A DNA stretch of 55,072 nucleotides from a virus (Duplodnaviria; Caudoviricetes): IMG/VR virus record IMGVR_UViG_3300025410_000023, positions 1-55,072 of that record; one strand, given 5' to 3'. Within the stretch, counting starts at the first letter, position 1; every line of letters begins with the position of its first letter. The position numbers and the translations under genes were made by a program. A model generated the notes under the pieces. It had not been told where the DNA came from. It worked only from the letters and a program-made list of their open reading frames with translations, and ran no database searches. Shown here in pieces: positions 4,601 to 31,647 of this stretch.

Positions 4601-5842
4601 TACATAAATTGAGTTACTTGCATTTGTTCCTGTATTACTAGCTGTATCCATTACAACTAAATTTTGACCAATATAGGCACCACCGTTGCTTAATACCAGT
4701 GTACCATTTTTACCGGTACTAGCACGAGTATTTCCATCAATCCAAACATTTCGATTAACATACAAACCACCAGCCTGAATGCTAACTGCCGAGCTACTGG
4801 TTGATCCACTGCTGGTAGGAGTATTTGAGCCTGTGACAATGACATTACCAGCACCAGTTGGTTGTAGTTTGATATTGATATCAGAAGCACTACCGTGTGT
4901 ACCTAAAATTACACCAGTGCCGGCATTTGAACCAGTAACAGTCAAATAGTTACTACCGCCGCCGACTACAGCAAAACCAGTGGTATTACCTACACTAGCA
5001 CTCTGTCCCAAGTTAAATGTAATATTACCAGTACCGCCTGAACCTACTACTAATCCTACTCCAGCCTCGCCACCTGCACGAATAACACCGTTTCCGCCAG
5101 TAGCTCCACCAAATACATTAACATAGTTAGGACTATTAGCACCTAGTGTAGATGTTCCGCCAACCCATAAATCTTGTCCAATGCCTGTTCCACCTACTAC
5201 TTGCAAAGCACCAGTTTGTGTTGTAGTAGCATTTGTGGAATCATTAGCTAAAACTTTCTTTGTAAATATTGCACCACCTGCTACAGTCAATGCTGGTGCA
5301 GGATCTGTTATATCTCCTGTACCTTGAACCTGTAAATCAGCACCTGTATAAACTGTACCAGTAGTTTCGTCTATAGTAATTGCTACTTTAGTAGTTCCAC
5401 TACCATTTTGAGAAAAAACTCTCAATTGATTTGCGGCATCAACATCAATATTCCAGGTGCTGTTTGATTGACCTGTTAATCCACCAATTCCTGCATATCC
5501 TAGTACAAGTTGTCCACCTTCACTTTGTCCAGCGGCATTAATAGTAACATAATTGCTAGCAGAAATAAATCCTGTAGCTGTTGTATTACCAGTTAATGCT
5601 TCAATTGTAAAACTACCGTTGCCGACATTAACATCGCCGGCAACGTTTAAAATATTTTGTAGATTTGAAGGACCGTATATGGTAGCAGTTGACGCTAACA
5701 TTAGGTCTTTAGCAAACGCGGCTGCCCCGTTTACTTGTAAAATTCCAGTATTACCGGTAGATGTTGTAGCAGGGTTTGTGATTCCTTGAACTACTAGACC
5801 TGCCTTAACAATAAAATCTTGAGTGAGTGATGTTAGTGCCAT
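1616..5842 (-). CDS. Long tail fibre-like virion protein (1408 aa)
   Basis: G/T/S/N-rich, with many GAL.V.GG.GI...L.V repeats. C-terminal domain (IDTWDASVYTSAKYIVQI) is shared with the 266-aa neighbour. SD AAGGGA. Confidence 0.75.
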   Translation of the reverse strand: MALTSLTQDFIVKAGLVVQGITNPATTSTGNTGILQVNGAAAFAKDLMLASTATIYGPSNLQNILNVAGDVNVGNGSFTIEALTGNTTATGFISASNYVTINAAGQSEGGQLVLGYAGIGGLTGQSNSTWNIDVDAANQLRVFSQNGSGTTKVAITIDETTGTVYTGADLQVQGTGDITDPAPALTVAGGAIFTKKVLANDSTNATTTQTGALQVVGGTGIGQDLWVGGTSTLGANSPNYVNVFGGATGGNGVIRAGGEAGVGLVVGSGGTGNITFNLGQSASVGNTTGFAVVGGGSNYLTVTGSNAGTGVILGTHGSASDINIKLQPTGAGNVIVTGSNTPTSSGSTSSSAVSIQAGGLYVNRNVWIDGNTRASTGKNGTLVLSNGGAYIGQNLVVMDTASNTGTNASNSIYVAGGVGIDGGLSVSGEAVFKNDVWFQGATTYVSSTNTVYTDNLIELHVPPTGVDGQWTVDDGKDIGIRFHYYNGQDLNAAFVLADDTKYFEFYSNGTETTSTGVFVGETYATLKAGSMLLVDTTVSTDYQSGALIVSGGVGIDGNVYVNGKVSSTYLQATDLNIPGGIVFSDSQGNLTNVGGMTYNSGTNILTANVTTATNLRGGAIGQIPIQNADGSTTFIPAGTADSQVLTWVAGATTATWQSASGTTVGNSSEAANLSGGAQYEVPYQIATSSTSFDSNFEWHYDNYYLQLNGNLQLYGVNTNAPGNADTQIVATPGLGIELYSNSTGGYSQLDYAGNTLVVVNSTGAILSTQGGDSTLTLDNSGNLTLGGVSNSSAVFTAPYVDPTNLSTNEVSYYNGSYLVGSSNLTFDGTTLSVTSFKDTALVTLGGVVYNTDGSGTLGDSSGLTYNGAGTLTVGTSLNISGVAGDITMTGGSLTGVYNVDMSTYNGTLTLGASGSVVLNYGNTYTVPYINGSNQLVDDTTFTYNPTSGYGSTGLMEVTNIEVTGAQNASGTDAALRVANGGLYVAVGTIINGSGDVGAGPALDVPNGGANVGLALHFGTQLSGGAGVSGSQGNTSADVSITGGAYFGGDVWIASGTGADYSGNGSLAVDGGVSINQNITVFSTEPTLGGVNDLASIGTKGGAYIKKDLYVGTTATIGGDLAVTGNETITGFLSANGGATLSAATVTNALLVNSTSPTLGSASAGSIQTLGGVGIAKDLYVGTTATIGGDLNVNGTIFMQGVGLDTISSNTGTFVDVISTGTIYANKFIVSSTLDASLSSYGANLGSVSASIKTAGGIKALGNVAVGKILYTGMNDAGDVLGQEPINKTIDGVFITNSMQSGGTYNGFSGSTAKTIDTWDASVYTSAKYIVQIVDSGNIHTEEMMVIQDGISVYISQYGVITNNGELGTFDGSINSGNVVITFKPNNASSSMKVNVVRQSILTGEESYC
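2281..2527. repeat. Intragenic duplication, 210-nt period (KDLYVGTTATIGGDL x2)
   Basis: gttgtacctacatataaatcttt is identical at 2295-2317 and 2505-2527. Confidence 0.85.
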
Positions 5843-5856
5843 TTATATTTCCCTTG

Positions 5857-6657
5857 TTATACAACCATTCCGGTTCGTAGTACACTTATTAATTTTGTTG
5901 TTGCAGTAGACGGAGTGAAATACAATCTTACATTATTATCATTCTGTACATCTGCCGCAAAATTTCCTAATTCTCCATTAGTTGTTAATAATCCATACTC
6001 TGTAGCAAACACAGTTTGATTATTATCAACCAACAACAATAATTCTATAACTTGAAAATGTGCTGTAGGACCGGATCCAGAATCAATCTGTATCAAGTAT
6101 TTTGCGGCCCTATACTCAGCGATGCTGTAGGTGTCTATTATTATTGTCGCTGTGGTATTTACCGAAACTAGCGTAGAATCAAACACTGAGTCCGCAATTC
6201 TTAGGCTTTCTGCTGTGACTCTTCCACCAATTCCTACTCCGCCGTTTACAACCAAAGCTCCTGTGGTAGTTGAAGTAGAGTTAGTGAGGTTACTTATATA
6301 TACAGCATTCGTTGTTGAATTGCCTCTGTTAGTAACACTTTGTAATGTAGATGTATCGCTGATAACAGCATATCCAGTTGATGTATTAACGTTAATATCT
6401 GTTCCGGATTTGATTGTTGCTAGTACTGTAGAAGATGTTAATACAGAAATCCCGCCAACATAGATACTGTTACTATTAATGGCAACTGTAGTTGTTCCTG
6501 TACCTATAACAATAGTATTAGTTGCTGTTACAGTATTAAATGTTTGATTTCCACTATTGTATCTTAACCAAGCGTTTCCGCTCCATATATAGGTCATACT
6601 GCCTAATTTGTAAGTTTGACCTACTGAAGGATTTGATGGAAAATTTAATGAAGACAT
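5857..6657 (-). CDS. Tail fibre-associated virion protein (266 aa)
   Basis: N-terminal LNFPSNPSVGQTY...YIWSGNAW module, TTGALVVNGGVGIG repeat, and C-terminal IDTY...YRAAKYLIQI domain paralogous to the 1408-aa protein. Confidence 0.7.
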   Translation of the reverse strand: MSSLNFPSNPSVGQTYKLGSMTYIWSGNAWLRYNSGNQTFNTVTATNTIVIGTGTTTVAINSNSIYVGGISVLTSSTVLATIKSGTDINVNTSTGYAVISDTSTLQSVTNRGNSTTNAVYISNLTNSTSTTTGALVVNGGVGIGGRVTAESLRIADSVFDSTLVSVNTTATIIIDTYSIAEYRAAKYLIQIDSGSGPTAHFQVIELLLLVDNNQTVFATEYGLLTTNGELGNFAADVQNDNNVRLYFTPSTATTKLISVLRTGMVV

Positions 6658-6667
6658 ATTTTACTCT

Positions 6668-8767
6668 TTATGCTATTTGTGTTATTTGTAACCAGAACCT
6701 ATCGTTACCATCTTGTATATACTGCATTTCTGCGGCAATGGTAGGATCTATCCAAAAATCTCCTACTCTAGGATTTGCTGGAGGAATACCATTGGCAGAT
6801 ACTGTAACTCTAGGTGAATATACTAGATTTTGTTCAAATGTGTTTCCGTCATTGCTATAGATACTACCTGGAACATTTAACACATTTGTACCTGTGACAA
6901 AGTAAGTTCCAGTAGTTTGAGTCGTAGTAACATATGTCAATGCAAGGTCACTGTCCAACGGACTATAATCTCCAATACTTTCAGTGAGTCCTAAATAATA
7001 TGTAGTGTCTGGTAATACATCATTAATGAATATACTAACAGCATTAGTAGAAGTAGATGAAGAAATATTATTAAGATTAGTCCAGGTTGCTGTTGTTCCG
7101 TTGCTAACAAGAACAGTATTTGCTAAACCAATTGGAATAAATTTAGTTATTCCAGTTGCTTGTTGATAAGGAATTCCGCCTACATTACCTCCGGCCAAAT
7201 TAGTTGAAGTTGTAATAGTTCCTGTGATAATTGCTTTAACTCTCATACCAGAGTAAACATCAACTTCACCAGTAATCATCATTCCGCCAGTGATACCAAC
7301 ACCACCTAATACCGTTAACGCCCCTGATGGTTCTAAAGAATTAACTGAACCTCCACTAACATATGCACTAAATCCTGTACCATTTACTGGTTGTAATAAA
7401 TTTTGGTCGTAATATAAACTAAAAGAAGTTGCTGTATTATAACTTGCATAATAAATTTGATCATTTAGTTCAGTTGTACCGACTATCCCTGTAATAACAA
7501 TTTCTGTACCTGTGCCAATTTCAAATACATCGCTTGTATATATAACTACAGGATTAGTTCGATTGACATTAATAACATTTGTTAGATAATAAGTAGCGGT
7601 AACTGCTGTCTCTAATCCAATACCTACATCACTGTTTAATTGAGTATATCCGTCACCATTATAATAATATGCACTGCCGATACTAATTTGATTATCTAAC
7701 CCGTCAACAAGTTGATCGCCACCAATAGCAATATTAGCATTACCGGATATCATATTATTGGCCACTTCGTGTCCAATTAATAAATTATAAGATCCTGTTG
7801 TAAGATTAACAGCGAGGTGATCACCTAAGAAAAAGTTTTGACGACCATTGATTAAACTTGATCCTGCACCATTACCAACTGCTATATTTGAATCATACAC
7901 TGCACTAACAGAAATTTCTCCACCACTAGCATAGGGAGTAAAACTAGATCCGTCTAGTGGAACGTTGGTGTTTATATCGTGATATAATCCAAGATTATTG
8001 CCTGTTAATGGTTTAACATAATAAACATTGTTGTTTAATTCTGTTGTCCCAACAATACCTGTTATTGTTACCTGTGTTCCAGTTATTAGATTATTTCCTG
8101 GAGCAACTACTGCGGTAGAAGTACTTAATATAACTCCAGTGATTGTGGCTGCTAGAAAACTATGATAAAAACCAATTTGACTTAATGCGCTATCGCCAAT
8201 AGCAATTGAATTTGATAAATCTGTACCAGAACTCAATGCATAGCGGCCAATAGCTATGTTTTTATAAGAAGTTTCAATTCCGGTTAATGCATCGTAACCA
8301 ATGACAATACTTTCTTGTCCATTATGTGTTTCATTAATTTGTGGAGAAGCAGTACCTTGAATAACAATGTTATTAAGTCCTTGCCATCCTTGTCCAATCG
8401 TCAACCCATTAACGTGAATATCTTCGCCTGTCCATAAACTGTTAGCAATTCCAACTCCGCCGTTGACAACTAATACTCCAGTATTTGTACTGGTATTTGC
8501 AATATTTCCTGATACAATAACTGTTCCTGTACCTGTACCAATGATTTGAATATTTTGATCTGACAAATTGCTGAACATTGTACCGTGATCAAATTGTATG
8601 TTACCTAAACTTGATCTATAAGTTGTTTGTAACAAAGAATCCGTAACAACGGTATATCCAGTACTGGTTGTATCAGTAGGAGGCAACTGAGGTTGTGCAC
8701 CTTTTAAATTAATATAGGTGTTACTTCCTCCTGATCTTAGTGTTGATCCACTTAGTAATTTTGGCAT
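6668..8767 (-). CDS. Fibre/adhesin-like virion protein (699 aa)
   Basis: NIAIG..AL repeats (YadA-head-like), two ITGIVGTTELN..YY modules, C-terminal PPANPRVGDFWID. Confidence 0.65.
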   Translation of the reverse strand: MPKLLSGSTLRSGGSNTYINLKGAQPQLPPTDTTSTGYTVVTDSLLQTTYRSSLGNIQFDHGTMFSNLSDQNIQIIGTGTGTVIVSGNIANTSTNTGVLVVNGGVGIANSLWTGEDIHVNGLTIGQGWQGLNNIVIQGTASPQINETHNGQESIVIGYDALTGIETSYKNIAIGRYALSSGTDLSNSIAIGDSALSQIGFYHSFLAATITGVILSTSTAVVAPGNNLITGTQVTITGIVGTTELNNNVYYVKPLTGNNLGLYHDINTNVPLDGSSFTPYASGGEISVSAVYDSNIAVGNGAGSSLINGRQNFFLGDHLAVNLTTGSYNLLIGHEVANNMISGNANIAIGGDQLVDGLDNQISIGSAYYYNGDGYTQLNSDVGIGLETAVTATYYLTNVINVNRTNPVVIYTSDVFEIGTGTEIVITGIVGTTELNDQIYYASYNTATSFSLYYDQNLLQPVNGTGFSAYVSGGSVNSLEPSGALTVLGGVGITGGMMITGEVDVYSGMRVKAIITGTITTSTNLAGGNVGGIPYQQATGITKFIPIGLANTVLVSNGTTATWTNLNNISSSTSTNAVSIFINDVLPDTTYYLGLTESIGDYSPLDSDLALTYVTTTQTTGTYFVTGTNVLNVPGSIYSNDGNTFEQNLVYSPRVTVSANGIPPANPRVGDFWIDPTIAAEMQYIQDGNDRFWLQITQIA

Positions 8768-8779
8768 TCTGTTTCTCTA

Positions 8780-9163
8780 TTATGAGTTAGCTGTCTCTAG
8801 TACACTTAGTACTAGTTGTAGTGTTCCTTCACGATCTGCAAAGGCACGTATACTATCTAAACTTTCAACAATCATTTTACCTGACAATGGAGTTCCTGCA
8901 TCATTGTTAGGAATTCCAAAATCTTTGACCAAATAACTATCTGTATTAGGCGCTTGGTACCCATTACCTTGAGCATCTGCTAGTACAGGTCTATTTCTAT
9001 GATGTATGAAACTAACATTTTGTGTTTGTGTTCCGATATTAGATACTTGCGCCATTAGTATAATAGCAGTAACACCAATAGGTGCTGTATATACAGTAGC
9101 GGTTGTAGATGTAGACAGTATAGATGTCTTAGTTTTAAACGTGTTTAATGGAAGCTGAGCCAT
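8780..9163 (-). CDS. Small hypothetical virion protein (127 aa)
   Basis: SD AAGGA, in the same operon, beta-rich composition. Confidence 0.6.
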   Translation of the reverse strand: MAQLPLNTFKTKTSILSTSTTATVYTAPIGVTAIILMAQVSNIGTQTQNVSFIHHRNRPVLADAQGNGYQAPNTDSYLVKDFGIPNNDAGTPLSGKMIVESLDSIRAFADREGTLQLVLSVLETANS

Positions 9164-15255: not shown

Positions 15256-16215
15256 TTAGATTGTATGAGATATACTTACTGTACCAGTTGTTGCTGTAGC
15301 AACATTCCATCCCGCCACTTGATTATTATCATAGGCAAAACTAGTGCCTTGCTGATATTGAACCAAATATGCTTTGTGTGCTGTTAGTTTTTCAACAAAG
15401 TATGTACTTCCGTTTACATCTGTAGCAATAATATTCATGTATCCTGCTGTTAATGTACTAGTTGTTGCTAGCTTACATTGTCCAACACCTTGTGATGTTT
15501 TTACAAGATAACGACGACTTGCTTCTTGTTTAACAATATCGTACTCAACTGCGCTAGAACCGCCATCTTTTACTTGTAAAAATGCGTTACCTTTAATTGC
15601 AGAACCATATTTTTCTAAAGTTTGCATTGTTGGAGTTGGTGCACCAGGACCTGTACCAACAACATTAGTATTGTTAAAACTTAGTGCTGGAATTGTGCCG
15701 TATCCGCTACCGTTAGCTGTTACATTAATTTGTTTTACACGATACTTAACGTGTGCTTGATTGTTACCGTCACCACCTTGAATTTCATATGTATCGGCCG
15801 CTACTGGAATTGTTGAGAAGCTACCACGATTAAATGGTACAATATTTTGTACTTCTTGCTGGCCTGAACCAACGTGTGTAATGTTAAATGTTGCGCCGCC
15901 GCCTAGACCTGTTAACAATGTTCCACCGTTAGTTGTTGTTGAATAGCTGTGACCTGATAGACCATTTGTAACATAAACACTTTCAACCTCCCAAATTACC
16001 TGAGCGGTTGCTTGTATGCCTGTTGGCTCATCTGGTGCCGGAATTACTAATACAGGTACGTGAGTTGCTGTTGAGCAAACTAAAATACTACCTAATTGAG
16101 TTGGATTAGCAATGCTTTCGATACCTTCTCCACCGATACCACTTGTATTACCTACGTGTTTAAATTGTTCATTATTTAGATTACCAAAAAATTTGGCTTT
16201 AATTGGACGTCCCAT
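15256..16215 (-). CDS. Virion protein immediately downstream of MCP (possible head decoration/accessory, 319 aa)
   Basis: Strong SD AAAGGAG, own TAAATA promoter (16296-16301) and own terminator; contains an I.V...GSGY...P repeat. Confidence 0.65.
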   Translation of the reverse strand: MGRPIKAKFFGNLNNEQFKHVGNTSGIGGEGIESIANPTQLGSILVCSTATHVPVLVIPAPDEPTGIQATAQVIWEVESVYVTNGLSGHSYSTTTNGGTLLTGLGGGATFNITHVGSGQQEVQNIVPFNRGSFSTIPVAADTYEIQGGDGNNQAHVKYRVKQINVTANGSGYGTIPALSFNNTNVVGTGPGAPTPTMQTLEKYGSAIKGNAFLQVKDGGSSAVEYDIVKQEASRRYLVKTSQGVGQCKLATTSTLTAGYMNIIATDVNGSTYFVEKLTAHKAYLVQYQQGTSFAYDNNQVAGWNVATATTGTVSISHTI

Positions 16216-16240
16216 TTTATTTTCTCCTTTAAGAATATGA

Positions 16241-16293
16241 CAGTTCTATTGCCTACGCGGTAGGGACCGCATAAACCCCTTTCGGGCGAACAG
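16241..16293 (-). ncRNA. Structured 5' leader (three-way junction), candidate cis-regulatory RNA
   Basis: GUUC/GAAC closing stem encloses CCC-GAAA-GGG and GUUUAUGCGG-UCCCUA-CCGCGUAGGC; three G-U pairs are valid only on the - strand. Confidence 0.55.
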
Positions 16294-16300
16294 TGTATTT

Positions 16301-16330
16301 AATAAAAAACGCCTCAAAGGGCGTTTTTAT
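16301..16330 (-). terminator. Rho-independent terminator after MCP
   Basis: - strand AAAAACGCC-CTTTGA-GGCGTTTTT-TATT; the T-tract runs into the next TAAATA box. Confidence 0.85.
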
Positions 16331-16356
16331 TTTTAGGTAAAACCTTAAGTATTTGA

Positions 16357-25715: not shown

Positions 25716-25939
25716 GGCTTTTGACATTATCTTTGTCAGAAATTGAAGAAGAAATTAAAAAAATTGACAATGAGTCAAAAGCCTTAAGAAAAGATATCTA
25801 TAAGTTAGCTTGGTTTATGCGCGGTTCTGTTAGTATAGAACAAGCATTTGGAATGGATATAGGAGACAGGAATATAGTCTCCGATTTAATAAAAGAAAAT
25901 TTAGAAACAACCAAAGAATCGGGCTTACCGTTCTTTTAA
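25712..25939 (+). CDS. Baseplate hub assembly chaperone, gp51-like (75 aa)
   Basis: ATGA overlap with the gp26-like gene; L.W.MRG.VS...A..M...DR pattern. Confidence 0.55.
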   Translation: MRLLTLSLSEIEEEIKKIDNESKALRKDIYKLAWFMRGSVSIEQAFGMDIGDRNIVSDLIKENLETTKESGLPFF

Positions 25940-26505
25940 ATACCTTTGTTTCTTAAACGTTGATCCATTGCCTGGATTGCTGCTTTTAATTGATCAACTT
26001 CTTGATCGTTTGAAGATCCTGCGTGAGAAACAGCAGGAGCACCTGCACCGCCTCCTGCTGTTGAGAATGATTGACCTGCTCTAGCTGTATCGTACCCACG
26101 TTTAAGTCCGCCTGCTAATGCACCCAATGGACTTGTAACTGCACCTACTGCTGAGGAAGCAACATCACCTACTCCACGTAACCCTGCACCTATACCTTGA
26201 CCAACACTGCCTATACCCTGTCCTACACCTTTAAGTCCAGTACCTACATTTTTGGCTAAATCACCAGTAGCTGTGGCAACATTACTTAATCCTGGTTGAA
26301 CTTTCTTTGCTAATTGTCCTGCATAGTTAGTAATAGCGGGAATATTCTGAGCCGCATTAGCCGCCCCTTTTTGTACAACATTGCTAACACTTTGAGCGCC
26401 TCGTCCTAAAGCACTTGCTCCAGCTTTCAAGGCATTACCTACGCCTGCTAGATTTAGCTCATTTACTTGATTTTGTTCGATAATAATTAATTCATTGATT
26501 TTCAT
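25936..26505 (-). CDS. Gly/Ala-rich late protein, possible internal head protein (189 aa)
   Basis: TATAAATA at 26533-26540; MKINEL..E N-terminus; heptad-like GVGQGIG repeats; its stop overlaps the convergent gene's stop (TTAA). Confidence 0.6.
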   Translation of the reverse strand: MKINELIIIEQNQVNELNLAGVGNALKAGASALGRGAQSVSNVVQKGAANAAQNIPAITNYAGQLAKKVQPGLSNVATATGDLAKNVGTGLKGVGQGIGSVGQGIGAGLRGVGDVASSAVGAVTSPLGALAGGLKRGYDTARAGQSFSTAGGGAGAPAVSHAGSSNDQEVDQLKAAIQAMDQRLRNKGI

Positions 26506-26532
26506 ACAGGAAGTCCCAAAGTGATATATTTT

Positions 26533-26540
26533 TATTTATA
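26533..26540 (-). promoter_or_regulatory. Late promoter TATAAATA
   Basis: Exact match upstream of ATG 26505. Confidence 0.7.
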
Positions 26541-26628
26541 TACTTAAAGTGAACTACGTTCACTTGCTTTATCGCTATCGCTCAAAGCAACTTATTTAAT
26601 GTTGATTACTACGAAGTAGTTTAAGTAT
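26540..26628. repeat. Multibranch inverted-repeat cluster with GNA-type mini-hairpins
   Basis: atacttaaa/tttaagtat closes aagtgaac-tac-gttcactt, ttgcttt...aaagcaa and actac-gaa-gtagt. Confidence 0.7.
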
Positions 26629-26983
26629 TATCCAGATTCCTTGGTCACACTTCGCCCGCTCAAGGGCAAAAATGACATTATCCGAGTTCGAACAGTCACT
26701 TAGTGTTAGAGCAGTTACAGTGGCGGTTGACCGGTACCACGAGCTCCGTCTTCATTCAACGGCAGTTTAACTATATACACTAACATATAGGTAAACCCAG
26801 GGTTTTTCTCCCTTCCTTTTTTGCCTTTTTCTATTATTCAAACAACTAAACCACGGCGAATTTGTGATCTTGGTCCTGTCAAGGATACTAGTTGAGTACT
26901 CTTAGCGGCGAGAGGTTTCCGTCCCTGTGATCCAAGATCCAGGTCTAGGGCATCCGAAATTAGCTGATGCTTGCTGATACCGC
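26627..26983 (-). ncRNA. Candidate large structured ncRNA, family not recognised
   Basis: No ORF >=60 aa, GC-enriched, about 10 stems, two loop-distal complementarities, and G-U pairs consistent only with the - strand. Confidence 0.65.
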
Positions 26984-27421
26984 TTATGAGCCTAATGTTT
27001 TCTTGATTATGTGCGAGCCATGTACACGGACTGATATTTGTCCATTATAGTAGTCTGTAGATTCTAATACTTTGCGGTCGAATTGTTCACGGGCCTCAAT
27101 GTAACTACATTCTGCTTTACTTTTACAGTAATATAATATCTCTCTACTAAAATTGTCTTTGCCTATTAGTGTAACATCTTTAGTTAGTTCGGGACTACTA
27201 CCGAAGTAGTCTTTCCAGTCACTATCTATTTTGCTACGAATTTTCTTCTTTTTCTTTGTACCGTTTTTTAATTTTATAGTTTTATAAGTGGTTTTAGAGA
27301 ATTTTGCTAATTTTTTGCCTATGTATTTTCTGTCATTGGTTAAGTTAGTAATAATGTAAACAAATCCTACACAATCTTCTGGTAATTCTTCAACTATTTG
27401 TCCTTGGTAAGTCCATTCCAT
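26984..27421 (-). CDS. Single-domain GIY-YIG endonuclease (145 aa)
   Basis: GFVYIITNLTNDRKYIGKK, Y.GSS, F.REIL, conserved E (YIEARE) and YYN. Confidence 0.85.
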   Translation of the reverse strand: MEWTYQGQIVEELPEDCVGFVYIITNLTNDRKYIGKKLAKFSKTTYKTIKLKNGTKKKKKIRSKIDSDWKDYFGSSPELTKDVTLIGKDNFSREILYYCKSKAECSYIEAREQFDRKVLESTDYYNGQISVRVHGSHIIKKTLGS

Positions 27422-27436
27422 TGATTACTAAATGCC

Positions 27437-27742
27437 TTAAATATTTTTTGTACCTTTCGGTTTAGGCCCTCTTTTTTGAGGGTTGGCTTTTTTATAAGCC
27501 TTTTCTTCTCGTCTTTGTTCTCGAACTAGTCTCAATCGTTCTTGATATGCAAGTCGAGAAATTTTTAACATTTCTTTTTCAAGAGACACCATTGCTCTTA
27601 ATTGCTTACGTACCTGTAGACCTATATCATAACTGGCCACAGATATAAAACTTTTATGGTAGTTATGCAAATTAACTGCACGTTCTATATATTCTGAATA
27701 TAGTTCTTTATAACGATCTAAGTACTTATTCGACATAATCAA
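27437..27742 (-). CDS. Small basic helical hypothetical protein (101 aa)
   Basis: Overlaps the gp46 end; K/R-rich C-terminal tail (KRGPKPK). True start may be MSNK at 27736. Confidence 0.6.
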   Translation of the reverse strand: MIMSNKYLDRYKELYSEYIERAVNLHNYHKSFISVASYDIGLQVRKQLRAMVSLEKEMLKISRLAYQERLRLVREQRREEKAYKKANPQKRGPKPKGTKNI

Positions 27743-29507
27743 TATCGTTGCTATAATTGGTAAATCCGTTTTCTTTTACAACTCTAAGTACATTATTAAC
27801 TCGACTTACTAGCTCGTCTTTATGACTAATAAGATATATATTTTTATTTCGTTCTCTGGCCATTTTCTTTAAAACAGCTAATGCACTTTCAACACCCGCA
27901 CTATCCATACCAGAGTCTACTAATTCATCGATGAATAGTAAGTTTATATTTTGATACAATCCTTCCCAAACATCTCGGAAAGCAAAACTTAGACTTAAGA
28001 TTAATCGATTGCGCTCGCCGCGTGATAAATTATCAAAATCTAAGTCTTGCCCTAACTGGGTAATTTCTACACTAAGATCATTTTGGAATAACACCTTATG
28101 TGGTAATCCTAATGCATCAATATAATGACTTAATCGTTTATTCAAATAGGTTAAATTTTGATCAATAATCTTTTTCCTTATAAAACTATCTTTGTTTGTT
28201 AGTAGTTTATATAAAAATTCTTGATGGTCTTTCAATCTAGTTGTTGTATTAATATGATCCCAAGTAATTTCTTGAATAGCAGTATTCTTTAATTCTTCTA
28301 TTTGCTCTTGATATGGATTGGCTTCGTCAATTTTTGTAATAAGTTCTTTTTCTAAACTAGCAACATTATTTTTATGACCCAATGCTTCAGCTTCGGTATC
28401 ATAAAATGTCTGCGGTTTATGTGGCTGATCACCTATTTTTTCAAGTTCGTCGCTGATTTTTTGTAGGTCATTGCCTACTTTAGTAGCATAAATTTGTGCT
28501 TCGTCTAAATGTTGTTGAGCAATTGACGACATTTCTTCGTGTTTGTGATCGTGAAGTGCTTGCTCGCAAGCTGGACAAGTTTTATCAACAAGTTTTCCTA
28601 GCTCATTGGTATACTTGGTCACTGATTTATTGGCCTGAGATAATGCACTTTCTAATGTTGCCTTTTGTTTATTAAGGTTTCTTAGTTCATTATCATTATC
28701 TTCCCAAACTTTTAGTGCTTGGTGAGCCAGCAATTCAGCTTCGATATCAACACTTTCAAGTTTCATTATTGCTTTACCCAAAGATTCAATGTCTTGATCT
28801 TTCTTAGAATCCCAAACAGAACTTTTAATTCCTAGGCTATCGATACTTTTTTGCACATTTTCATTGGCTTTTTTAATTGCTTCAATTCTTAATGTTTCTG
28901 CCTGTATTTGATCTTTCGATTCTTTAATAGCCAACTTTAAATTTTCAGCTTTTTCGCTTAATTGAGTTATACCTAATAATTGTTCAATGATTTCTCGTTG
29001 ATCTGCGGCCTTCATTGACAAGAAAGGTTCTGTATATGTATTAAGAGCTACTAAATGTTTAAACATTGTATGGCTTAATTCTAGCATTTGATCAATTGCT
29101 TTTTGTGTTTCTCTACTATCGCCCTGAGCATCATCTTCAATTTCGTCAGATTTTAACTCTTGATCATTTACATATAACTTAAGAATATTCGGCTTACGAC
29201 CTCTTTCAATACGATAATTATAGCCATTTTTTTCAAATTCGACTGTAACCAACATACCTTTTCCGTTGGTCTTATTGATTAAATTTTCTTTACGTATATT
29301 AGTAAGTGCTTGCCCATATACTGCATAACTCAACGCATTGATAATAGTTGTTTTTCCTGTGCCATTACGAGACCCGGTATCGTCACCACCTAAATCTACA
29401 TTCTCACCTAGTACAAGAGTAAGATGTTCTTTGGCAAAATCTACAGCCTGGGTTTGATTACCTACGCTCATAAAATTTTTAACAGTGATATTTTTAATTT
29501 TAAACAT
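27726..29507 (-). CDS. gp46: Rad50/SbcC-like recombination ATPase, gp46
   Basis: KNFMSVGN, Walker A NGTGKTT, zinc hook CPAC, signature LSRGE, Walker B LLFIDE, ISHK. Confidence 0.95.
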   Translation of the reverse strand: MFKIKNITVKNFMSVGNQTQAVDFAKEHLTLVLGENVDLGGDDTGSRNGTGKTTIINALSYAVYGQALTNIRKENLINKTNGKGMLVTVEFEKNGYNYRIERGRKPNILKLYVNDQELKSDEIEDDAQGDSRETQKAIDQMLELSHTMFKHLVALNTYTEPFLSMKAADQREIIEQLLGITQLSEKAENLKLAIKESKDQIQAETLRIEAIKKANENVQKSIDSLGIKSSVWDSKKDQDIESLGKAIMKLESVDIEAELLAHQALKVWEDNDNELRNLNKQKATLESALSQANKSVTKYTNELGKLVDKTCPACEQALHDHKHEEMSSIAQQHLDEAQIYATKVGNDLQKISDELEKIGDQPHKPQTFYDTEAEALGHKNNVASLEKELITKIDEANPYQEQIEELKNTAIQEITWDHINTTTRLKDHQEFLYKLLTNKDSFIRKKIIDQNLTYLNKRLSHYIDALGLPHKVLFQNDLSVEITQLGQDLDFDNLSRGERNRLILSLSFAFRDVWEGLYQNINLLFIDELVDSGMDSAGVESALAVLKKMARERNKNIYLISHKDELVSRVNNVLRVVKENGFTNYSNDIDYVE

Positions 29508-30520
29508 TATAGATTATTATATATTTCTAGTAGAGTTGATTTTTCAAATTGTGTTGAATCTATATTAACCAATTGTTCTGTGACAATCTGGTCAACACTT
29601 TCAAACAAAGTATCTAGAGTATCGCTGGTAGAACCTTCTAGATTAACTTTGTCTTGTTGTAGTCCTATTTCTCTAATATCGTAATTTTTAGTAAACTCTT
29701 CTTTGATAAAATTTGCTTCTTCGAAACTAATGTCGATGTCTAAATTAACTCTAAAGTACATTTTACTTTTCATTAATTCTGCCTGACGATCGATTAGTTC
29801 GCTCAACTTAATAGTTCTATACTTAGGGCAATCTGGCCAATTAATAAACTCTGGCTTACCACCCCACTCTAATATCATCATTCCACGATCATCGTCCCAC
29901 GCATCAGCAAAATTATGTGGAAAAGCGTTTCCTATATAGATAATATGTTCTTGTTGCTGTCTTTTATGAAAGTGTCCGCTGAATACATAATCTGGGCCTT
30001 TAAAAACATCAGATGTAAGCTCACCGTGATCGGGCATTTGTACCATAGCATTCATAAAGAAGTGAGGCAATTCAAAATGTCCGAATACATATTTGCTTTT
30101 TATATCCTTCATAGTCTTCCACTCATCCCCAACTAACCACGGAACAAGGGTAACATCATCAAGAGTTGTAATACCATCTACAACAGTAACTCCTGGAATG
30201 TGACGACCAAACGCCGATGAATGAATGTCGCGCTTGTCTTTGTAAAACAAATCGTGGTTGCCAGGAAACCAAAAGAACTGTTCAAAAGAAGAACCTAATT
30301 TTTCTAAGCATCTTAAACTAGAATCTAAAGTAAAAAGATTCAAACTATTTCTATTATGTGACCAGTCTCCCATAAAGATACAGGTTTCGCAATTATTTTT
30401 TTCAGCTTCTTCGATAAACCAATCTACAAATTCTTCACAATCTCGAAGATGTACAGAACTATTAGATTTAAGTCCTACATGAAGATCTGTAAAGACAGCA
30501 ACTTTCTTAAATAATCCCAT
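29507..30520 (-). CDS. gp47: Mre11/SbcD-like nuclease, gp47
   Basis: Metallophosphoesterase motifs DLHVG, GDW, GNHD, GHF, SGHFH; TAATG coupling to gp46. Confidence 0.95.
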   Translation of the reverse strand: MGLFKKVAVFTDLHVGLKSNSSVHLRDCEEFVDWFIEEAEKNNCETCIFMGDWSHNRNSLNLFTLDSSLRCLEKLGSSFEQFFWFPGNHDLFYKDKRDIHSSAFGRHIPGVTVVDGITTLDDVTLVPWLVGDEWKTMKDIKSKYVFGHFELPHFFMNAMVQMPDHGELTSDVFKGPDYVFSGHFHKRQQQEHIIYIGNAFPHNFADAWDDDRGMMILEWGGKPEFINWPDCPKYRTIKLSELIDRQAELMKSKMYFRVNLDIDISFEEANFIKEEFTKNYDIREIGLQQDKVNLEGSTSDTLDTLFESVDQIVTEQLVNIDSTQFEKSTLLEIYNNL

Positions 30521-30620: not shown

Positions 30621-30658
30621 TATTTAAAAAGTTTAACAGGCACAGTGAATAAAGTCAA
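30621..30658 (-). promoter_or_regulatory. Sigma70-like promoter plus TAAATA box upstream of gp47
   Basis: TTGACT (30658-30653), 17 nt spacer, TG-extended TAAACT (30635-30630); TAAATA at 30626-30621. Confidence 0.55.
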
Positions 30659-31572
30659 GTCTCTGTTTCGTCCTCTTCTATACCTTCTTCGTCCTCTGGT
30701 ACATCTTCACTTTTTGGCATACGCATATTTTTATAAAGTTCTGCTTGCCTTGCAGTTTCTTCTGCGTACTCGTGTGAATGTTGTCTGGTAGAACTAGGAG
30801 TTAATCCTGCCTCTTCTAACAAGTCGTCTCGAATATTTTGGCTTTTCTTTTCAAGATTTAAAATTCTTGTAAAACTGTTGGTAACAGCGGCTGTATAATA
30901 AGCAAACGGATTTTCGGATTTAGACTCATCAAACTGTAGTCCAATTTGACTTAACTGTAGGATAGCTTGACCTTTCATTTCGTCAACATAAGTGTATCCG
31001 CGCCAGTTGCTACGCTGTGCATAACGCTCTGATAATTTGATAAACATTTTACCAAGATTTTCTGTGATACGTCCGTGATCTTTACTAAAATGCCCAGTAT
31101 CTACAGGTCCTTTCCAATGGCTTTTTCCAACGCAGACTAACTCGTCCTGATCGTCGAATTTCCAATGTTGATACGGTGGAAAATTTACTTTGTCATGACT
31201 ATCTGCCGTAATTTTTAATGTTTTTTTACGACCTGGTGATAATGGAATATGATCAAATGTCATTATTCGGATTATAATATCTTTTTTATCTATGGTTTTA
31301 TAATCAGGAGTACATTCGGATAATTTAATTTTTTTATCTCCTGACAGCCGAGCCGCAGAAAATGCGTAAATTCCTAGTCTCTTTGCACGATTGCGTTTAG
31401 CTTCGGCAATTGTTCTAATGTTTACTTTGTCAAGATTGGGTAGAATAATATCGTATTGCTGATATTCGGGTTTGGTAAAACTTGAATATGAGCATTTACT
31501 TTTATGTATCTCTGCTAATAAATCTCTATTGTTTAAGTATTTTACTTTCCTTGTGGTGAATATTGGAGTCAT
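30655..31572 (-). CDS. gp55: Late-transcription sigma factor, gp55-like, with large insertion
   Basis: YLNNRDLLAEI, NWRGYTYVDEM, FDESKSENPFAYYT..NSF.RI...EKK; adjacent to gp47/46 as in T4. Start taken at ATG 31572, downstream of the promoter and AAGGA. Confidence 0.85.
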   Translation of the reverse strand: MTPIFTTRKVKYLNNRDLLAEIHKSKCSYSSFTKPEYQQYDIILPNLDKVNIRTIAEAKRNRAKRLGIYAFSAARLSGDKKIKLSECTPDYKTIDKKDIIIRIMTFDHIPLSPGRKKTLKITADSHDKVNFPPYQHWKFDDQDELVCVGKSHWKGPVDTGHFSKDHGRITENLGKMFIKLSERYAQRSNWRGYTYVDEMKGQAILQLSQIGLQFDESKSENPFAYYTAAVTNSFTRILNLEKKSQNIRDDLLEEAGLTPSSTRQHSHEYAEETARQAELYKNMRMPKSEDVPEDEEGIEEDETET

Positions 31573-31597
31573 CTTTTTATTATTTTCCTTATATTTG

Positions 31598-31625
31598 AGT
31601 ATAACACAAATCTGTTGTGTGTCAA
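31598..31625 (-). promoter_or_regulatory. Sigma70-type early promoter for the gp55 block
   Basis: TTGACA (31625-31620), 16 nt spacer, TG-extended TATACT (31603-31598). Confidence 0.7.
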
Positions 31626-31647
31626 CCACAGTATTAAATTAGCAGTT

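What the first reader, a model, noticed from the sequence alone, without database searches (positions are those of the whole stretch)
26627..26983. Unrecognised ~350-nt pseudoknotted RNA starting at the stop codon of a GIY-YIG nuclease gene
Seen: this is the only long non-coding stretch in a gene-dense window, and it is clearly more GC-rich than other intergenic DNA. On the - strand it folds by eye into GCAUC/GAUGC, CCCU/AGGG and CUCU/AGAG stems; a junction closed by CAACUAG/UUAGUUG (26888-94/26843-49) holding UCCU-UGAC-AGGA and AUCAC/GUGGU; AGGG/CCCU; GGUUUA.CUAUAUG/UAUAUAG.UAAACU; CCGUU/GACGG; nested GAGC-GUGG-CGG(UCAA)CCG-CCAC-GCUC; and GUCAUUUUUGCCC/GGGCGAAGUGUGAC. Two long-range complementarities look like pseudoknots: GAUCUUGG/CCAAGAUC (26932-39/26866-73) and loop UUAGUGU/ACACUAA (26777-83/26700-06). 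At least six stems use G-U pairs that would be A-C mismatches on +, which points to function as RNA on the strand of the gp55-gp47-gp46-GIY-YIG block. I see no group I/II intron, RNase P, tmRNA or tRNA core. Inference: a possibly new large phage ncRNA. It could be a partner, guide or scaffold for the adjacent nuclease (by analogy to HEARO/omegaRNA-IscB), a ribozyme, or a ColE1-RNAII-like replication primer.
Basis: partly seen in the sequence, partly recalled or inferred. Interest (0 to 1): 0.9.

Follow-up and report, generated by a model that had tools for sequence, protein, structure and literature searches.

The report
Large modular phage RNA, partly known
The stretch encodes a real, about 435-base folded RNA whose first third is an already catalogued motif of unknown function, and whose newly seen rest carries an odd pair of matching short sequences that always mutate together.

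Summary
The non-coding stretch is real. It is the longest internal ORF-free gap (26506-26983) and is GC-richer than the other ORF-free DNA (0.454 against 0.351). It is not wholly unrecognised: 26840-26975 (-) is a full-length Rfam Polynucleobacter-1 RNA (RF01718, 107 bits, cut-off 37).

New here: homology and covariation continue about 300 nt beyond the Rfam model, to about 26549. On 88 relatives, 60 pairs in 13 helices are 96.3% paired against 82.7% when shuffled. GAUCUUGG/CCAAGAUC is not.

A conserved 3' module holds two 13-14-nt elements (26689-26676, 26639-26626) whose variable bases stay identical through at least 26 independent double changes.

Context:
- In 109 freshwater T4-like phage loci the RNA follows a small nuclease gene: GIY-YIG in 104, PD-(D/E)XK in 3.
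- In Polynucleobacter/Limnohabitans islands it is cargo between a DUF6641 gene and a short tyrosine recombinase.
- Nuclease and RNA are exchanged independently (distance correlation 0.35).

Best reading (confidence 0.4): an autonomous trans-acting RNA that recognises a partner through the twin elements. An RNA-guided nuclease remains possible (about 0.2).

The parts
26984..27421 (-). 145-aa GIY-YIG nuclease gene (SegE-type nuclease domain only), directly upstream of the RNA
   Evidence: Pfam PF19835, 3.1e-34, residues 3-129 of 145. The translation shows VYII..x10..KYIGK. A relative lies directly upstream of the RNA in 96 of 109 phage loci and upstream with an insertion in 8 more.
26840..26975 (-). 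5' domain, the Rfam Polynucleobacter-1 RNA (RF01718). It holds P1 26970-66/26954-50, hairpin 26943-37/26931-24, P3 26914-11/26902-899, junction helix 26894-89/26848-43, small hairpin 26884-83/26876-75 and hairpin 26868-64/26854-50.
   Evidence: cmscan 107 bits against a gathering score of 37, model positions 1-141. Helices 1-6 are 98-100% paired with compensatory changes.
26799..26813 (-). Hairpin AGGG/CCCU after an A-rich linker (26839-26814)
   Evidence: Helix 7: all 3 pairs change on both sides (GC36/UA25/CG16), 91.7% paired.
26764..26797 (-). Long hairpin GGUUUA.CUAUAUG/UAUAUAG.UAAACU. Its loop 26783-26777 is the 5' strand of the pseudoknot.
   Evidence: Helices 8 and 9 change on both sides. 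The MAFFT alignment is poor in the outer part.
26700..26706 (-). 3' strand (ACACUAA) of the pseudoknot with loop 26783-26777
   Evidence: Helix 10: 7 of 7 pairs change on both sides (CG54/UA34, GC56/AU29, AU73/GC10), 94% paired. On a tree the pair 271/418 changed 8 and 8 times, 8 jointly.
26709..26746 (-). Nested helix GAGC/GCUC plus GUGG/CCAC, closing the near-invariant loop GGUACCGG.CAACCGCC. Some relatives carry an extra inserted hairpin here.
   Evidence: Helices 11 and 12 (GC57/CG21/UA5, AU58/UA27). Invariant G248-C264 block.
26676..26689 (-). Twin element 1: GA-ACUC-GGAUAAUG (X1 = 26683-26677), preceded by GUGAC at 26699-26695
   Evidence: Identity covariation with element 2: columns 443/503 GG62 AA25 GA1, 447/507 GG49 AA39, 449/509 UU64 AA23 GG1. 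These amount to 15, 6 and 6 joint changes on the tree.
26650..26670 (-). Hairpin UUUGCCCU/GGGCGAAG between the twin elements
   Evidence: Helix 13: 8 pairs, 98% paired, 4 with changes on both sides.
26626..26639 (-). Twin element 2: GA-AUCU-GGAUAAUA (X2 = 26633-26627), preceded by GUGAC at 26648-26644
   Evidence: As for element 1. This is the only such module in the window. The same module is found in type-2 RNAs and in bacterial copies.
26549..26619 (-). Conserved tail. It holds hairpin 26619-26609, the helix GCUU/AAGC (26588-85/26569-66) around GC(GAUA)GC (26581-74), and the terminal hairpin GUGAAC-GUA-GUUCAC (26563-26549).
   Evidence: Conservation profile. Covarying pairs 569/606 GC24 UA21 CG15, 567/608 and 585/600 GC65 AU7. 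Inner pairs GC162/AU9 and CG136/UA23 in 185 tails. The terminal hairpin varies with compensation in the alignment.
26533..26540 (-). TATAAATA (T4-late-promoter-like), 27 nt before the ATG of ORF 25936-26505. It marks the 3' limit of the RNA.
   Evidence: Only 3 matches in the window against 10.7 expected, all on the minus strand. The link to T4 late promoters is recalled.

Best explanation
Window 26985-26549 (minus strand) is the gene of a structured non-coding RNA of about 435 nt.

Its parts:
- A 5' domain that is the Rfam motif Polynucleobacter-1.
- A middle domain locked by a loop-to-strand pseudoknot.
- A 3' module in which two single-stranded 13-14-nt elements (n-n-A-CUC-X7 and n-n-A-UCU-X7) flank a hairpin.
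- Three tail hairpins.

Shown:
- The RNA-type fold.
- The strand.
- The extent.
- The modular build: the same 3' module sits on an unrelated 5' scaffold in 'type 2' relatives.
- The carriers: freshwater T4-like phages and integrative islands of freshwater Burkholderiales.

Inferred:
- It is an autonomous, horizontally exchanged accessory RNA that acts in trans.
- The twin elements have no covarying partner inside the RNA, yet they change together as strictly as a base pair. They are therefore its specificity determinant and bind two copies or sites of one outside partner, most simply a nucleic acid.
- The upstream GIY-YIG gene is a separate, independently exchanged homing-type nuclease gene. 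It is co-transcribed with the RNA gene and parked beside this very conserved gene.
For: A real RNA, and longer than the Rfam model:
- RF01718 scores 107 bits.
- Homology to at least 119 IMG/VR loci spans 26964-26621 and often runs on to about 26531.
- 60 pairs are 96.3% paired against 82.7% when shuffled (0 of 500 shuffles reach it). 44 pairs change on both sides. Covariation is 0.423 against 0.168, and 0.037-0.079 when the partners are slid.

Twin elements:
- Identity is 99-100% at three variable positions.
- They show 15, 6 and 6 joint changes on a tree built from the rest of the RNA.
- The next-best partner column has MI of 0.28 or less.
- The constant CUC/UCU difference inside the repeat argues against gene conversion.
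- The module is also present in bacterial copies with other X words and in type-2 RNAs.

Autonomy:
- In bacteria the RNA has a divergent upstream gene, so it has its own promoter region. It sits in a cargo slot that holds protein genes in other islands.
- RF01718 is found in 17 of 151 and 7 of 139 genomes of two genera, while the recombinase family is in 77 of 151.
- L136/L212 carry the RNA with no nuclease.
- The GIY-to-RNA distance correlation is 0.35, against 0.52 and 0.57 for each with gp46. L375 and L377 have near-identical gp46 and RNA but a 21% different GIY.
- Nuclease families alternate at one site.
- It is not a 5' leader in phages: convergent genes follow the RNA at about +385 in many loci.
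Against: - No partner of the twin elements was found. There was none within 5 kb of the bacterial copies, none in the 55-kb window at up to 1 mismatch, and none in four host genomes beyond the RNA genes themselves plus two lone hits.
- A nuclease gene lies directly upstream in 107 of 109 phage loci, and no empty site was seen in 41 of 41 close relatives. That is unusually constant for a selfish neighbour.
- GIY-YIG is more conserved than gp46 (75.4% against 65.0% identity, higher in 77 of 86 loci). This could mean purifying selection on a partner protein.
- Transcription is only hinted at: low-depth metatranscriptome contigs of relatives, in which carried-over DNA is not excluded.
Confidence: 0.4

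Rival explanations
1. RNA-protein machine. The RNA is the guide or scaffold of the small single-domain nuclease encoded just upstream (GIY-YIG or PD-(D/E)XK). The twin 13-nt elements select the DNA to be cut, in the manner of omega-RNA/IscB or bridge RNA/IS110.
For: - The nuclease gene ends 12-55 nt before the RNA in most loci. A nuclease gene is upstream in 107 of 109 loci.
- 41 of 41 close gp46 relatives carry GIY plus an X-module RNA.
- 54 of 64 close GIY relatives are followed by an X-module, against 0 of 80 on the reverse strand.
- Both nucleases are catalytic domains without a recognisable DNA-binding domain.
- The twin elements behave like programmable words, with 13 different 7-mers.
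Against: - GIY and RNA are exchanged independently: correlation 0.35, and L375/L377 differ 21% in GIY with 1.7% in the RNA.
- One GIY clade (75-85% identity) goes with two unrelated 5' scaffolds.
- Two unrelated nuclease folds go with one RNA.
- 10 of 64 close GIY relatives have no such RNA within 1.5 kb. More distant relatives in Melnitz and S-SRM01 have none nearby.
- Bacterial copies have no GIY nearby; PD-(D/E)XK was not searched for there.
- X varies within a narrow pattern (N-N-N-N-R-A-W), not freely.
- No target was found.
Confidence: 0.2
2. Cis-acting end of the operon. The structure is a long 3' UTR that stabilises, terminates or regulates the gp55-gp46-nuclease transcript. In bacteria it would be a 5' leader of the recombinase or cargo genes, as Rfam's discoverers guessed ('cis-reg: y').
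For: - The RNA starts at the stop codon of the nuclease gene and ends in a hairpin just before a late-promoter-like TATAAATA.
- In bacteria it lies upstream of, and on the strand of, the recombinase.
- One metatranscriptome contig joins part of the ORF and part of the RNA.
- The table of PMC2864571 marks the motif as probably cis-regulatory (passage read).
Against: - About 435 nt with 13 or more covarying helices, a pseudoknot and identity-coupled elements is far more than a terminator or stabiliser needs.
- No intrinsic terminator was predicted on the minus strand in 26400-27000.
- The position relative to genes is opposite in phages (3' of a gene, with convergent genes after it) and bacteria (5' of genes).
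- The RNA is exchanged independently of the nuclease gene.
Confidence: 0.1
3. Self-processing RNA or ribozyme. The twin elements mark two equivalent cleavage or ligation sites, so that the hairpin of about 50 nt between them is cut out or the RNA is rearranged.
For: - The twin elements flank a conserved hairpin at a spacing of 50 nt here (26683/26633) and 50-73 nt elsewhere.
- The core is highly conserved and pseudoknotted, as in ribozymes.
Against: - No match to any Rfam ribozyme or intron at E up to 10 in the region.
- No joint skipping the hairpin was seen in the few RNA contigs (weak, since contigs only).
- Equivalent sites would not need identical variable bases unless a guide reads them.
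Confidence: 0.08
4. DNA-level element. The conserved 3' module is the recognition or cleavage site of the neighbouring homing nuclease, or a folded single-stranded DNA site. The identity of the twins would be kept at the DNA level.
For: - Alternating nuclease genes sit at one site.
- GIY is more similar between phages than gp46, and the region is mosaic. Both are expected after homing with co-conversion.
- G-T wobbles are also possible in single-stranded DNA of the same strand.
Against: - The covariation pattern (13 helices, GNRA-type loops, a pseudoknot) and the Rfam model fit an RNA.
- The constant CUC/UCU inside the repeat speaks against conversion between the copies.
- Bacterial copies keep the twins without such nucleases.
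Confidence: 0.07

Closest known systems
Polynucleobacter-1 RNA motif (Rfam RF01718; Weinberg et al. 2010, PMC2864571)
   Same: Window 26840-26975 (-) matches the whole model (1-141) at 107 bits. The helices agree and covary. The habitat is the same: Burkholderiales and fresh water.
   Different: - The Rfam model covers only the 5' third. Here the RNA continues for about 300 nt with a pseudoknot, the twin-element module and a tail.
- Most copies found are in T4-like phage contigs.
- The function is unknown in Rfam too (typed 'Gene; sRNA'; the paper's table says cis-regulatory 'y', riboswitch '?').
HEARO / omega-RNA with IscB, and TnpB reRNA (OMEGA systems)
   Same: A large structured, pseudoknotted RNA is encoded next to a small nuclease gene on a mobile or viral genome.
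   Different: - No Rfam HEARO hit at E up to 10.
- The nuclease is GIY-YIG or PD-(D/E)XK, not RuvC/HNH.
- There is no terminal guide. Two internal identical 13-nt words are found instead.
- RNA and protein do not co-evolve tightly.
IS110/IS1111 bridge (seek) RNA
   Same: Two separate loops of one RNA must carry matching bases (the shared core of target and donor), which gives identity-type coupling. In bacteria a recombinase gene is the neighbour.
   Different: - The neighbour here is a tyrosine recombinase catalytic domain, not a DEDD/RuvC-like IS110 enzyme.
- That recombinase family mostly occurs without the RNA (77 against 17 of 151 genomes).
- No donor or target match was found.
- A 2026 review still lists tyrosine recombinases as protein-guided only (PMC13604230, passages read).
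GOLLD and ROOL large RNAs of phages and prophages (recalled)
   Same: Very large, intricately folded RNAs of unknown function, carried by phages and mobile islands with a patchy distribution.
   Different: - No sequence or model similarity (no Rfam hit).
- The size is smaller.
- The twin-element module and the constant nuclease neighbour have no counterpart that I know of.
Free-standing homing endonuclease genes (seg, mob) of T4-like phages beside conserved genes (recalled)
   Same: A small GIY-YIG gene of the SegE family sits in an intergenic slot next to a highly conserved gene. Different nuclease families alternate at one site. The neighbourhood is mosaic.
   Different: - The nuclease is present in 107 of 109 loci, with no empty site in 41 of 41. 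Homing genes are usually sporadic.
- It is only 145 aa, without the usual DNA-binding part.

Membership tests
Rfam RF01718 Polynucleobacter-1 RNA | Covariance-model score at or above the curated gathering score (37 bits) over the whole model | tested here: met
   107 bits, E 2.9e-22, model positions 1-141 of 141, window 26840-26975 (-).
Rfam RF01718 Polynucleobacter-1 RNA | The model's helices are kept by compensatory changes in relatives | tested here: met
   Helices 1-6 are 98-100% paired. Changes on both sides occur in 5/5, 3/7, 3/4, 4/6, 1/2 and 4/5 pairs.
Group I / group II intron | Match to the Rfam intron models; split exons on both sides | tested here: not met
   No intron family at E up to 10 in 26450-27100. 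The flanks are a complete nuclease ORF and a promoter plus a separate ORF.
tRNA / tmRNA | ARAGORN detection | tested here: not met
   The only gene in the window is tRNA-Ser at 4911-5000.
HEARO / omega-RNA (IscB) | Rfam model match; neighbouring IscB/IsrB (RuvC, HNH) gene | tested here: not met
   No hit at E up to 10. The neighbour is a GIY-YIG protein.
RNA-guided nuclease or recombinase systems in general | RNA and protein always encoded together and co-evolving | tested here: inconclusive
   They are together in 107 of 109 phage loci. However, the distance correlation is 0.35, the scaffolds and nucleases are swapped, and the RNA is alone in bacteria.
RNA-guided nuclease or recombinase systems in general | A guide segment complementary to a DNA target | tested here: not met
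   No complement of the twin elements was found in the flanks, the window or four host genomes. Foreign targets could not be searched.
GIY-YIG nucleases, SegE family (the neighbouring gene) | Pfam PF19835 above cut-off, with the GIY..YIG motif | tested here: met
   118.3 bits against a cut-off of 25. VYII-x10-KYIGK is present in the translation.
Homing endonuclease (functional sense) | Sporadic presence, with empty sites in close relatives | tested here: not met
   0 empty sites among 41 close gp46 relatives that have enough sequence.
Homing endonuclease (functional sense) | Cleavage of nuclease-free alleles | not testable with these tools
   This needs an enzyme assay.

The most novel reading that the evidence does not exclude
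The twin 13-nt elements are programmable recognition words of a new RNA-guided system. The modular RNA would recruit small catalytic-domain-only DNA enzymes (GIY-YIG or PD-(D/E)XK in phages) and hold two identical DNA sites or two duplexes together, much as a bridge RNA does.

An alternative reading is structurally just as unusual: the two elements pair with each other as a parallel-stranded stretch of like-with-like base pairs.
Probability: 0.2. Interest if true: 0.9.

Novelty: new variant of a known kind. Interest (0 to 1): 0.62.

Why it matters
- Large bacterial and phage RNAs with this much proven structure are few, and each has opened a field (RNase P, group I/II introns, omega-RNA, bridge RNA, ROOL/GOLLD). 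This work turns a 141-nt orphan motif from 2010 into a modular RNA of 430-600 nt that is abundant in freshwater T4-like phages.
- It exposes a rare signal: two distant segments that keep identical, not complementary, bases through at least 26 independent double changes. That gives a direct handle for experiments, namely changing one, the other or both.
- It makes the question 'guide, decoy or regulator?' testable.
- If the nuclease link is functional, this would be a new class of RNA-directed DNA enzyme.
- If the link is not functional, it is still a widespread accessory RNA shared by lytic phages and bacterial islands, which is a typical pattern for defence or counter-defence functions.

Tried and rejected
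- **Single-sequence folding.** z was -0.56 and -0.92, so it was uninformative.
- **First viral scan.** The 14-base pattern was too unspecific, so a two-block pattern replaced it.
- **Cultured phages.** blastn 'distant' found no match for the type-1, type-2 or bacterial RNA. The closest cultured GIY relatives, Melnitz (56%) and S-SRM01 (43%), have no RF01718 nearby at E up to 0.1. Their whole genomes were not searched.
- **Clade-B pattern in viral contigs.** 0 hits.
- **Tyrosine recombinase as obligate partner.** Rejected. The family is in 77 of 151 genomes against 17 for the RNA. In 20 recombinase loci without the RNA, DUF6641 is still upstream in 14, and protein genes fill the slot. Rfam found only a tRNA there.
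- **Internal partner of the twin elements.** Only the invariant U-rich UUGUUU near 26845-26838 can pair, by G-U, and it does not covary. The helix UCGGAU/AUCUGG is not kept in bacterial copies.
- **Island ends or att cores equal to X.** Not found. L288 has four copies of a 23-nt palindrome unrelated to X.
- **Complement of the sites in host genomes.** Only the RNA genes themselves plus two lone hits.
- **Translational bypass like T4 gene 60** (50-nt gap, NNA followed by UAA/UGA in the phage copies; the gene 60 facts are recalled). Rejected. No ORF reaches the site, the frames are inconsistent and bacterial X words have no stop.
- **Promoter and terminator scan.** Nothing beyond chance on the minus strand.
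- **RNA runs.** Four lake metatranscriptomes hold contigs that are 80-95% alike, at depth 3-5, over 26668-26903 and parts of the ORF. This shows neither a discrete transcript nor its ends.
- **Tail alignment by MAFFT/alifold.** It was too gappy to give a full consensus.
- **Literature.** Searches found nothing on DUF6641 (0 papers), nothing on an RNA-guided tyrosine recombinase or GIY-YIG (listings), and only the 2010 paper for Polynucleobacter-1. I read that paper's table row. Its supplements, which may describe the motif's gene context, are closed.
- **Not run.** Structure prediction, fold search, complex prediction, the protein-database searches and the metagenome scan.
Full report
**What is at the coordinates**

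The window is a 55-kb IMG/VR virus record, with a CheckV completeness estimate of 16%.

The minus strand around the finding carries, in order:
- a late sigma factor gp55 (30655-31629)
- an SbcD-like gp47 (29507-30520)
- an SbcC-like gp46 (27726-29507)
- an unknown 101-aa ORF
- a 145-aa GIY-YIG protein of the SegE family (26984-27421; PF19835, 3.1e-34)

Then follow 478 nt without any ORF of 60 aa or more, to the ATG at 26505 of an unknown 189-aa ORF. This is the longest internal ORF-free stretch. Its core, 26627-26983, has GC 0.454, against 0.351 for all other ORF-free DNA. The physical observation therefore stands.

**It is partly known**

cmscan against Rfam 15 places a full-length Polynucleobacter-1 RNA (RF01718, model 1-141) at 26840-26975 on the minus strand. 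It scores 107 bits against a gathering score of 37. Nothing else in 26450-27100 reaches E below 0.9. ARAGORN finds no tRNA or tmRNA there.

The motif was described in 2010. The only text on it in the searched library is a table row: RNA 'y', cis-regulatory 'y', switch '?', Burkholderiales and fresh water/estuary (PMC2864571; table row read). The paper's supplements are closed.

**It is much longer than the Rfam model**

- blastn of window 27000-26500 against these shows that similarity typically spans 26964-26621 and often runs on to about 26531.
- A column profile shows conservation from about 26985 to 26622, and again over 26590-26550.

I aligned 88 distinct sequences. Of the 120 pattern matches, the window's own included, 89 were full-length and unique. 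L136 was dropped as too divergent, and 15 loci were too short.

**Structure**

I wrote out a structure of 60 pairs in 13 helices, including one pseudoknot. One search gave:

| Measure | Observed | Control |
|---|---|---|
| Cells paired | 96.3% | 82.7 ± 0.3% shuffled (0 of 500 reach it) |
| Pairs changed on both sides | 44 | 30.8 shuffled |
| Covariation score | 0.423 | 0.168 shuffled; 0.037-0.079 with partners slid 1-3 columns |

RNAalifold on its own found 58 pairs, 37 of them with double changes.

All 7 pairs change on both sides, for example CG54/UA34 and GC56/AU29.
- The first pseudoknot (26939-32 with 26873-66) behaves like shuffled columns, 56.4% against 55.7% paired. The local hairpin drawn by Rfam covaries instead.
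- G-U pairs are common in covarying pairs, which fixes the folded strand as the minus strand.
- Folding energy of the single sequence is not special.

**The twin elements**

A mutual-information scan gave the expected Watson-Crick pairs. It also gave three column pairs that covary by identity, at a constant offset of 50 nt:

| Window positions | Pair counts |
|---|---|
| 26683/26633 | GG62, AA25, GA1 |
| 26679/26629 | GG49, AA39 |
| 26677/26627 | UU64, AA23, GG1 |

These positions lie in two repeat-like words:
- GA-ACUC-GGAUAAUG (26689-26676)
- GA-AUCU-GGAUAAUA (26639-26626)

Each word sits a few bases after a GUGAC, and the two flank the hairpin 26670-26650.

On a maximum-likelihood tree built from the rest of the RNA, these positions changed 14/15, 6/6 and 6/6 times, always jointly. 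True base pairs behave in exactly the same way: 271/418 changed 8 and 8 times, 8 jointly.

- No other column is coupled to them (MI 0.28 or less).
- The middle of the repeat (CUC against UCU) stays different. Conversion between the copies is therefore unlikely, and selection for identity is the simplest reading.
- Where a regular expression could find both copies (74 loci), 13 different 7-mers occur. That set is selected for identity in six positions, so the unbiased evidence is.

**Phage context**

| Upstream of the RNA (109 loci with at least 560 nt upstream) | Loci |
|---|---|
| GIY-YIG gene directly upstream | 96 |
| GIY-YIG gene upstream with an insertion between | 8 |
| 171-aa PD-(D/E)XK nuclease in its place (PF24608, 1.1e-25), ending 12 nt before the RNA | 3 |
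| Neither (L136/L212, a different phage type) | 2 |

- Downstream genes are often convergent, starting about 385 nt after the core pattern. In phages the RNA therefore cannot be a 5' leader.
- Of the 80 closest gp46 relatives, 41 have enough sequence. All 41 carry GIY plus an RNA with the twin-element module.
- Of 64 close GIY relatives (73-93% identity) with at least 900 nt downstream, 54 are followed by such a module. Controls gave 0 of 80 on the reverse strand and 0 upstream. The other 10 lie in a different gene context.

**A second scaffold**

About a quarter of the module-bearing GIY loci have no Polynucleobacter-1 domain. They carry a different, longer 5' part with no Rfam hit. The same 3' module and tail follow it, with X = ACAUGAA or ACAUAAA. 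The RNA is therefore modular, and the 3' module is its constant part.

**Bacterial copies**

| Genomes searched | With RF01718 |
|---|---|
| Sample of G001's family | 1 of 151 (G001 itself) |
| Genus of a Limnohabitans MAG | 7 of 139 |
| Genus of a Polynucleobacter MAG | 17 of 151 above cut-off |

Many of these copies are on complete chromosomes, and some genomes have two.

I fetched 30 such loci and located the RNA in 29:
- A DUF6641 gene lies divergently upstream in all 29.
- A 194-aa tyrosine recombinase lies downstream in 19 of the 21 loci that have at least 1600 nt downstream, and in one truncated locus. It consists of the catalytic domain only (PF00589, 3.6e-28) and aligns to residues about 100-290 of Xer proteins.
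- These RNAs are GC-richer but keep the architecture, including twin elements with other words such as AUCGAAAG and AGCGAAAG.

This recombinase family is in 77 of 151 genomes, often in several copies. In 20 such loci without the RNA, DUF6641 is still upstream in 14 and the space between holds protein genes. The RNA is therefore one alternative cargo of an island slot, not the recombinase's obligate partner.

**Are nuclease and RNA a unit?**

For 105 unique loci carrying gp46, GIY and a type-1 RNA, I correlated the pairwise distances:

| Pair | Correlation |
|---|---|
| gp46 and GIY | 0.52 |
| gp46 and RNA | 0.57 |
| GIY and RNA | 0.35 |

- Some phages have 1.5% gp46 distance and 1.7% RNA distance but 21% GIY distance.
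- Others have near-identical RNAs on diverged backbones.
- The region is a mosaic, and the two genes are exchanged independently.

Together with the swapped scaffolds and swapped nuclease families, this argues against a tightly co-evolved ribonucleoprotein. The near-universal adjacency, and a GIY that is more conserved than gp46 (75.4% against 65.0% identity), keep that rival alive.

**Search for a partner of the twin elements**

No complement was found in any of these places:
- within 5 kb of the bacterial copies
- in the 55-kb window, allowing up to 1 mismatch
- in four host genomes, apart from the RNA genes themselves and two lone hits

Foreign genomes could not be searched.

**Transcription**

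Four lake metatranscriptomes hold low-depth contigs of relatives over 26668-26903 and parts of the ORF. One contig joins both. This is a hint only, because carried-over DNA is not excluded. The RNA ends before a TATAAATA at 26540-26533. That word is depleted in the window (3 found against 10.7 expected).

**Verdict**

- This is a real, abundant, modular structured RNA.
- Its 5' third is the known orphan motif Polynucleobacter-1. Its extension, its pseudoknot, its second scaffold type, its contexts and its identity-coupled twin elements are, as far as my searches show, not in print.
- The most likely mode of action is trans recognition of an outside partner through the twin elements (confidence 0.4). 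An RNA-directed nuclease is the main and more exciting rival (0.2).

Noticed in passing
window 16213-16289 (-): A second Rfam motif of unknown function, freshwater-2 (RF02980), at 57.8 bits against a cut-off of 49.9. It lies in a 141-nt ORF-free gap at 16216-16356.
   Followed up: no
L314:1924-2500, L307, L361, L300, L343, L386 (IMG/VR loci): A 'type 2' RNA after the same GIY-YIG gene. It has an unrelated, conserved 5' scaffold of about 330-580 nt (it begins AAGGUUGGCGGGCCAG...) with no Rfam match. This scaffold is joined to the same twin-element module and tail.
   Followed up: partly
L203:4127-4639, and the same place in L160 and L211: A 171-aa PD-(D/E)XK nuclease (PF24608; phrog_244, 'RusA-like resolvase') replaces the GIY-YIG gene exactly and ends 12 nt before the RNA.
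   Followed up: partly
L288 (G001:C13:33335-43469) and 49 other loci in Polynucleobacter/Limnohabitans genomes: A family of small islands: [large integrase] - [101-aa ORF] - [DUF6641] <-> variable cargo -> [short tyrosine recombinase of about 190 aa]. The recombinase family is in 77 of 151 genomes of one genus, with up to 6 copies. The cargo is either the RNA or diverse, often acidic, proteins.
   Followed up: partly
L288:4572-4594, 6463-6485, 7938-7960, 9020-9042: Four copies of a 23-nt palindrome (GAACGTCCAG-CAA-CTGGACGATG type) at gene borders inside one island. They may be terminators or recombination sites.
   Followed up: no
window, whole: TATAAATA occurs only 3 times against 10.7 expected, always on the minus strand (1542-1535, 20752-20745, 26540-26533). 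This is as if the word were reserved for late promoters.
   Followed up: no
alignment A1, columns 371-409 (between window 26713 and 26712): About a fifth of the relatives carry an extra AU-rich hairpin of 20-60 nt, inserted in the loop side of helix GAGC/GCUC.
   Followed up: no
window 26683-26677 and 26633-26627; phage relatives: In the phage copies the twin word reads NNA followed by UAA or UGA (GGAUAA, AGAUGA, ACAUGA and so on), and here the copies are exactly 50 nt apart. This is superficially like the take-off and landing sites of T4 gene 60 bypassing (recalled). No ORF reaches the site, and the bacterial words lack the stop.
   Followed up: partly
L136:7515-8000 and L212 (IMG/VR): An intermediate RNA variant in a different phage backbone, with DNA ligase upstream and a D-Ala-D-Ala carboxypeptidase downstream. 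There is no adjacent nuclease gene.
   Followed up: partly
window 4911-5000 (-): A tRNA-Ser (anticodon GCU) gene.
   Followed up: no
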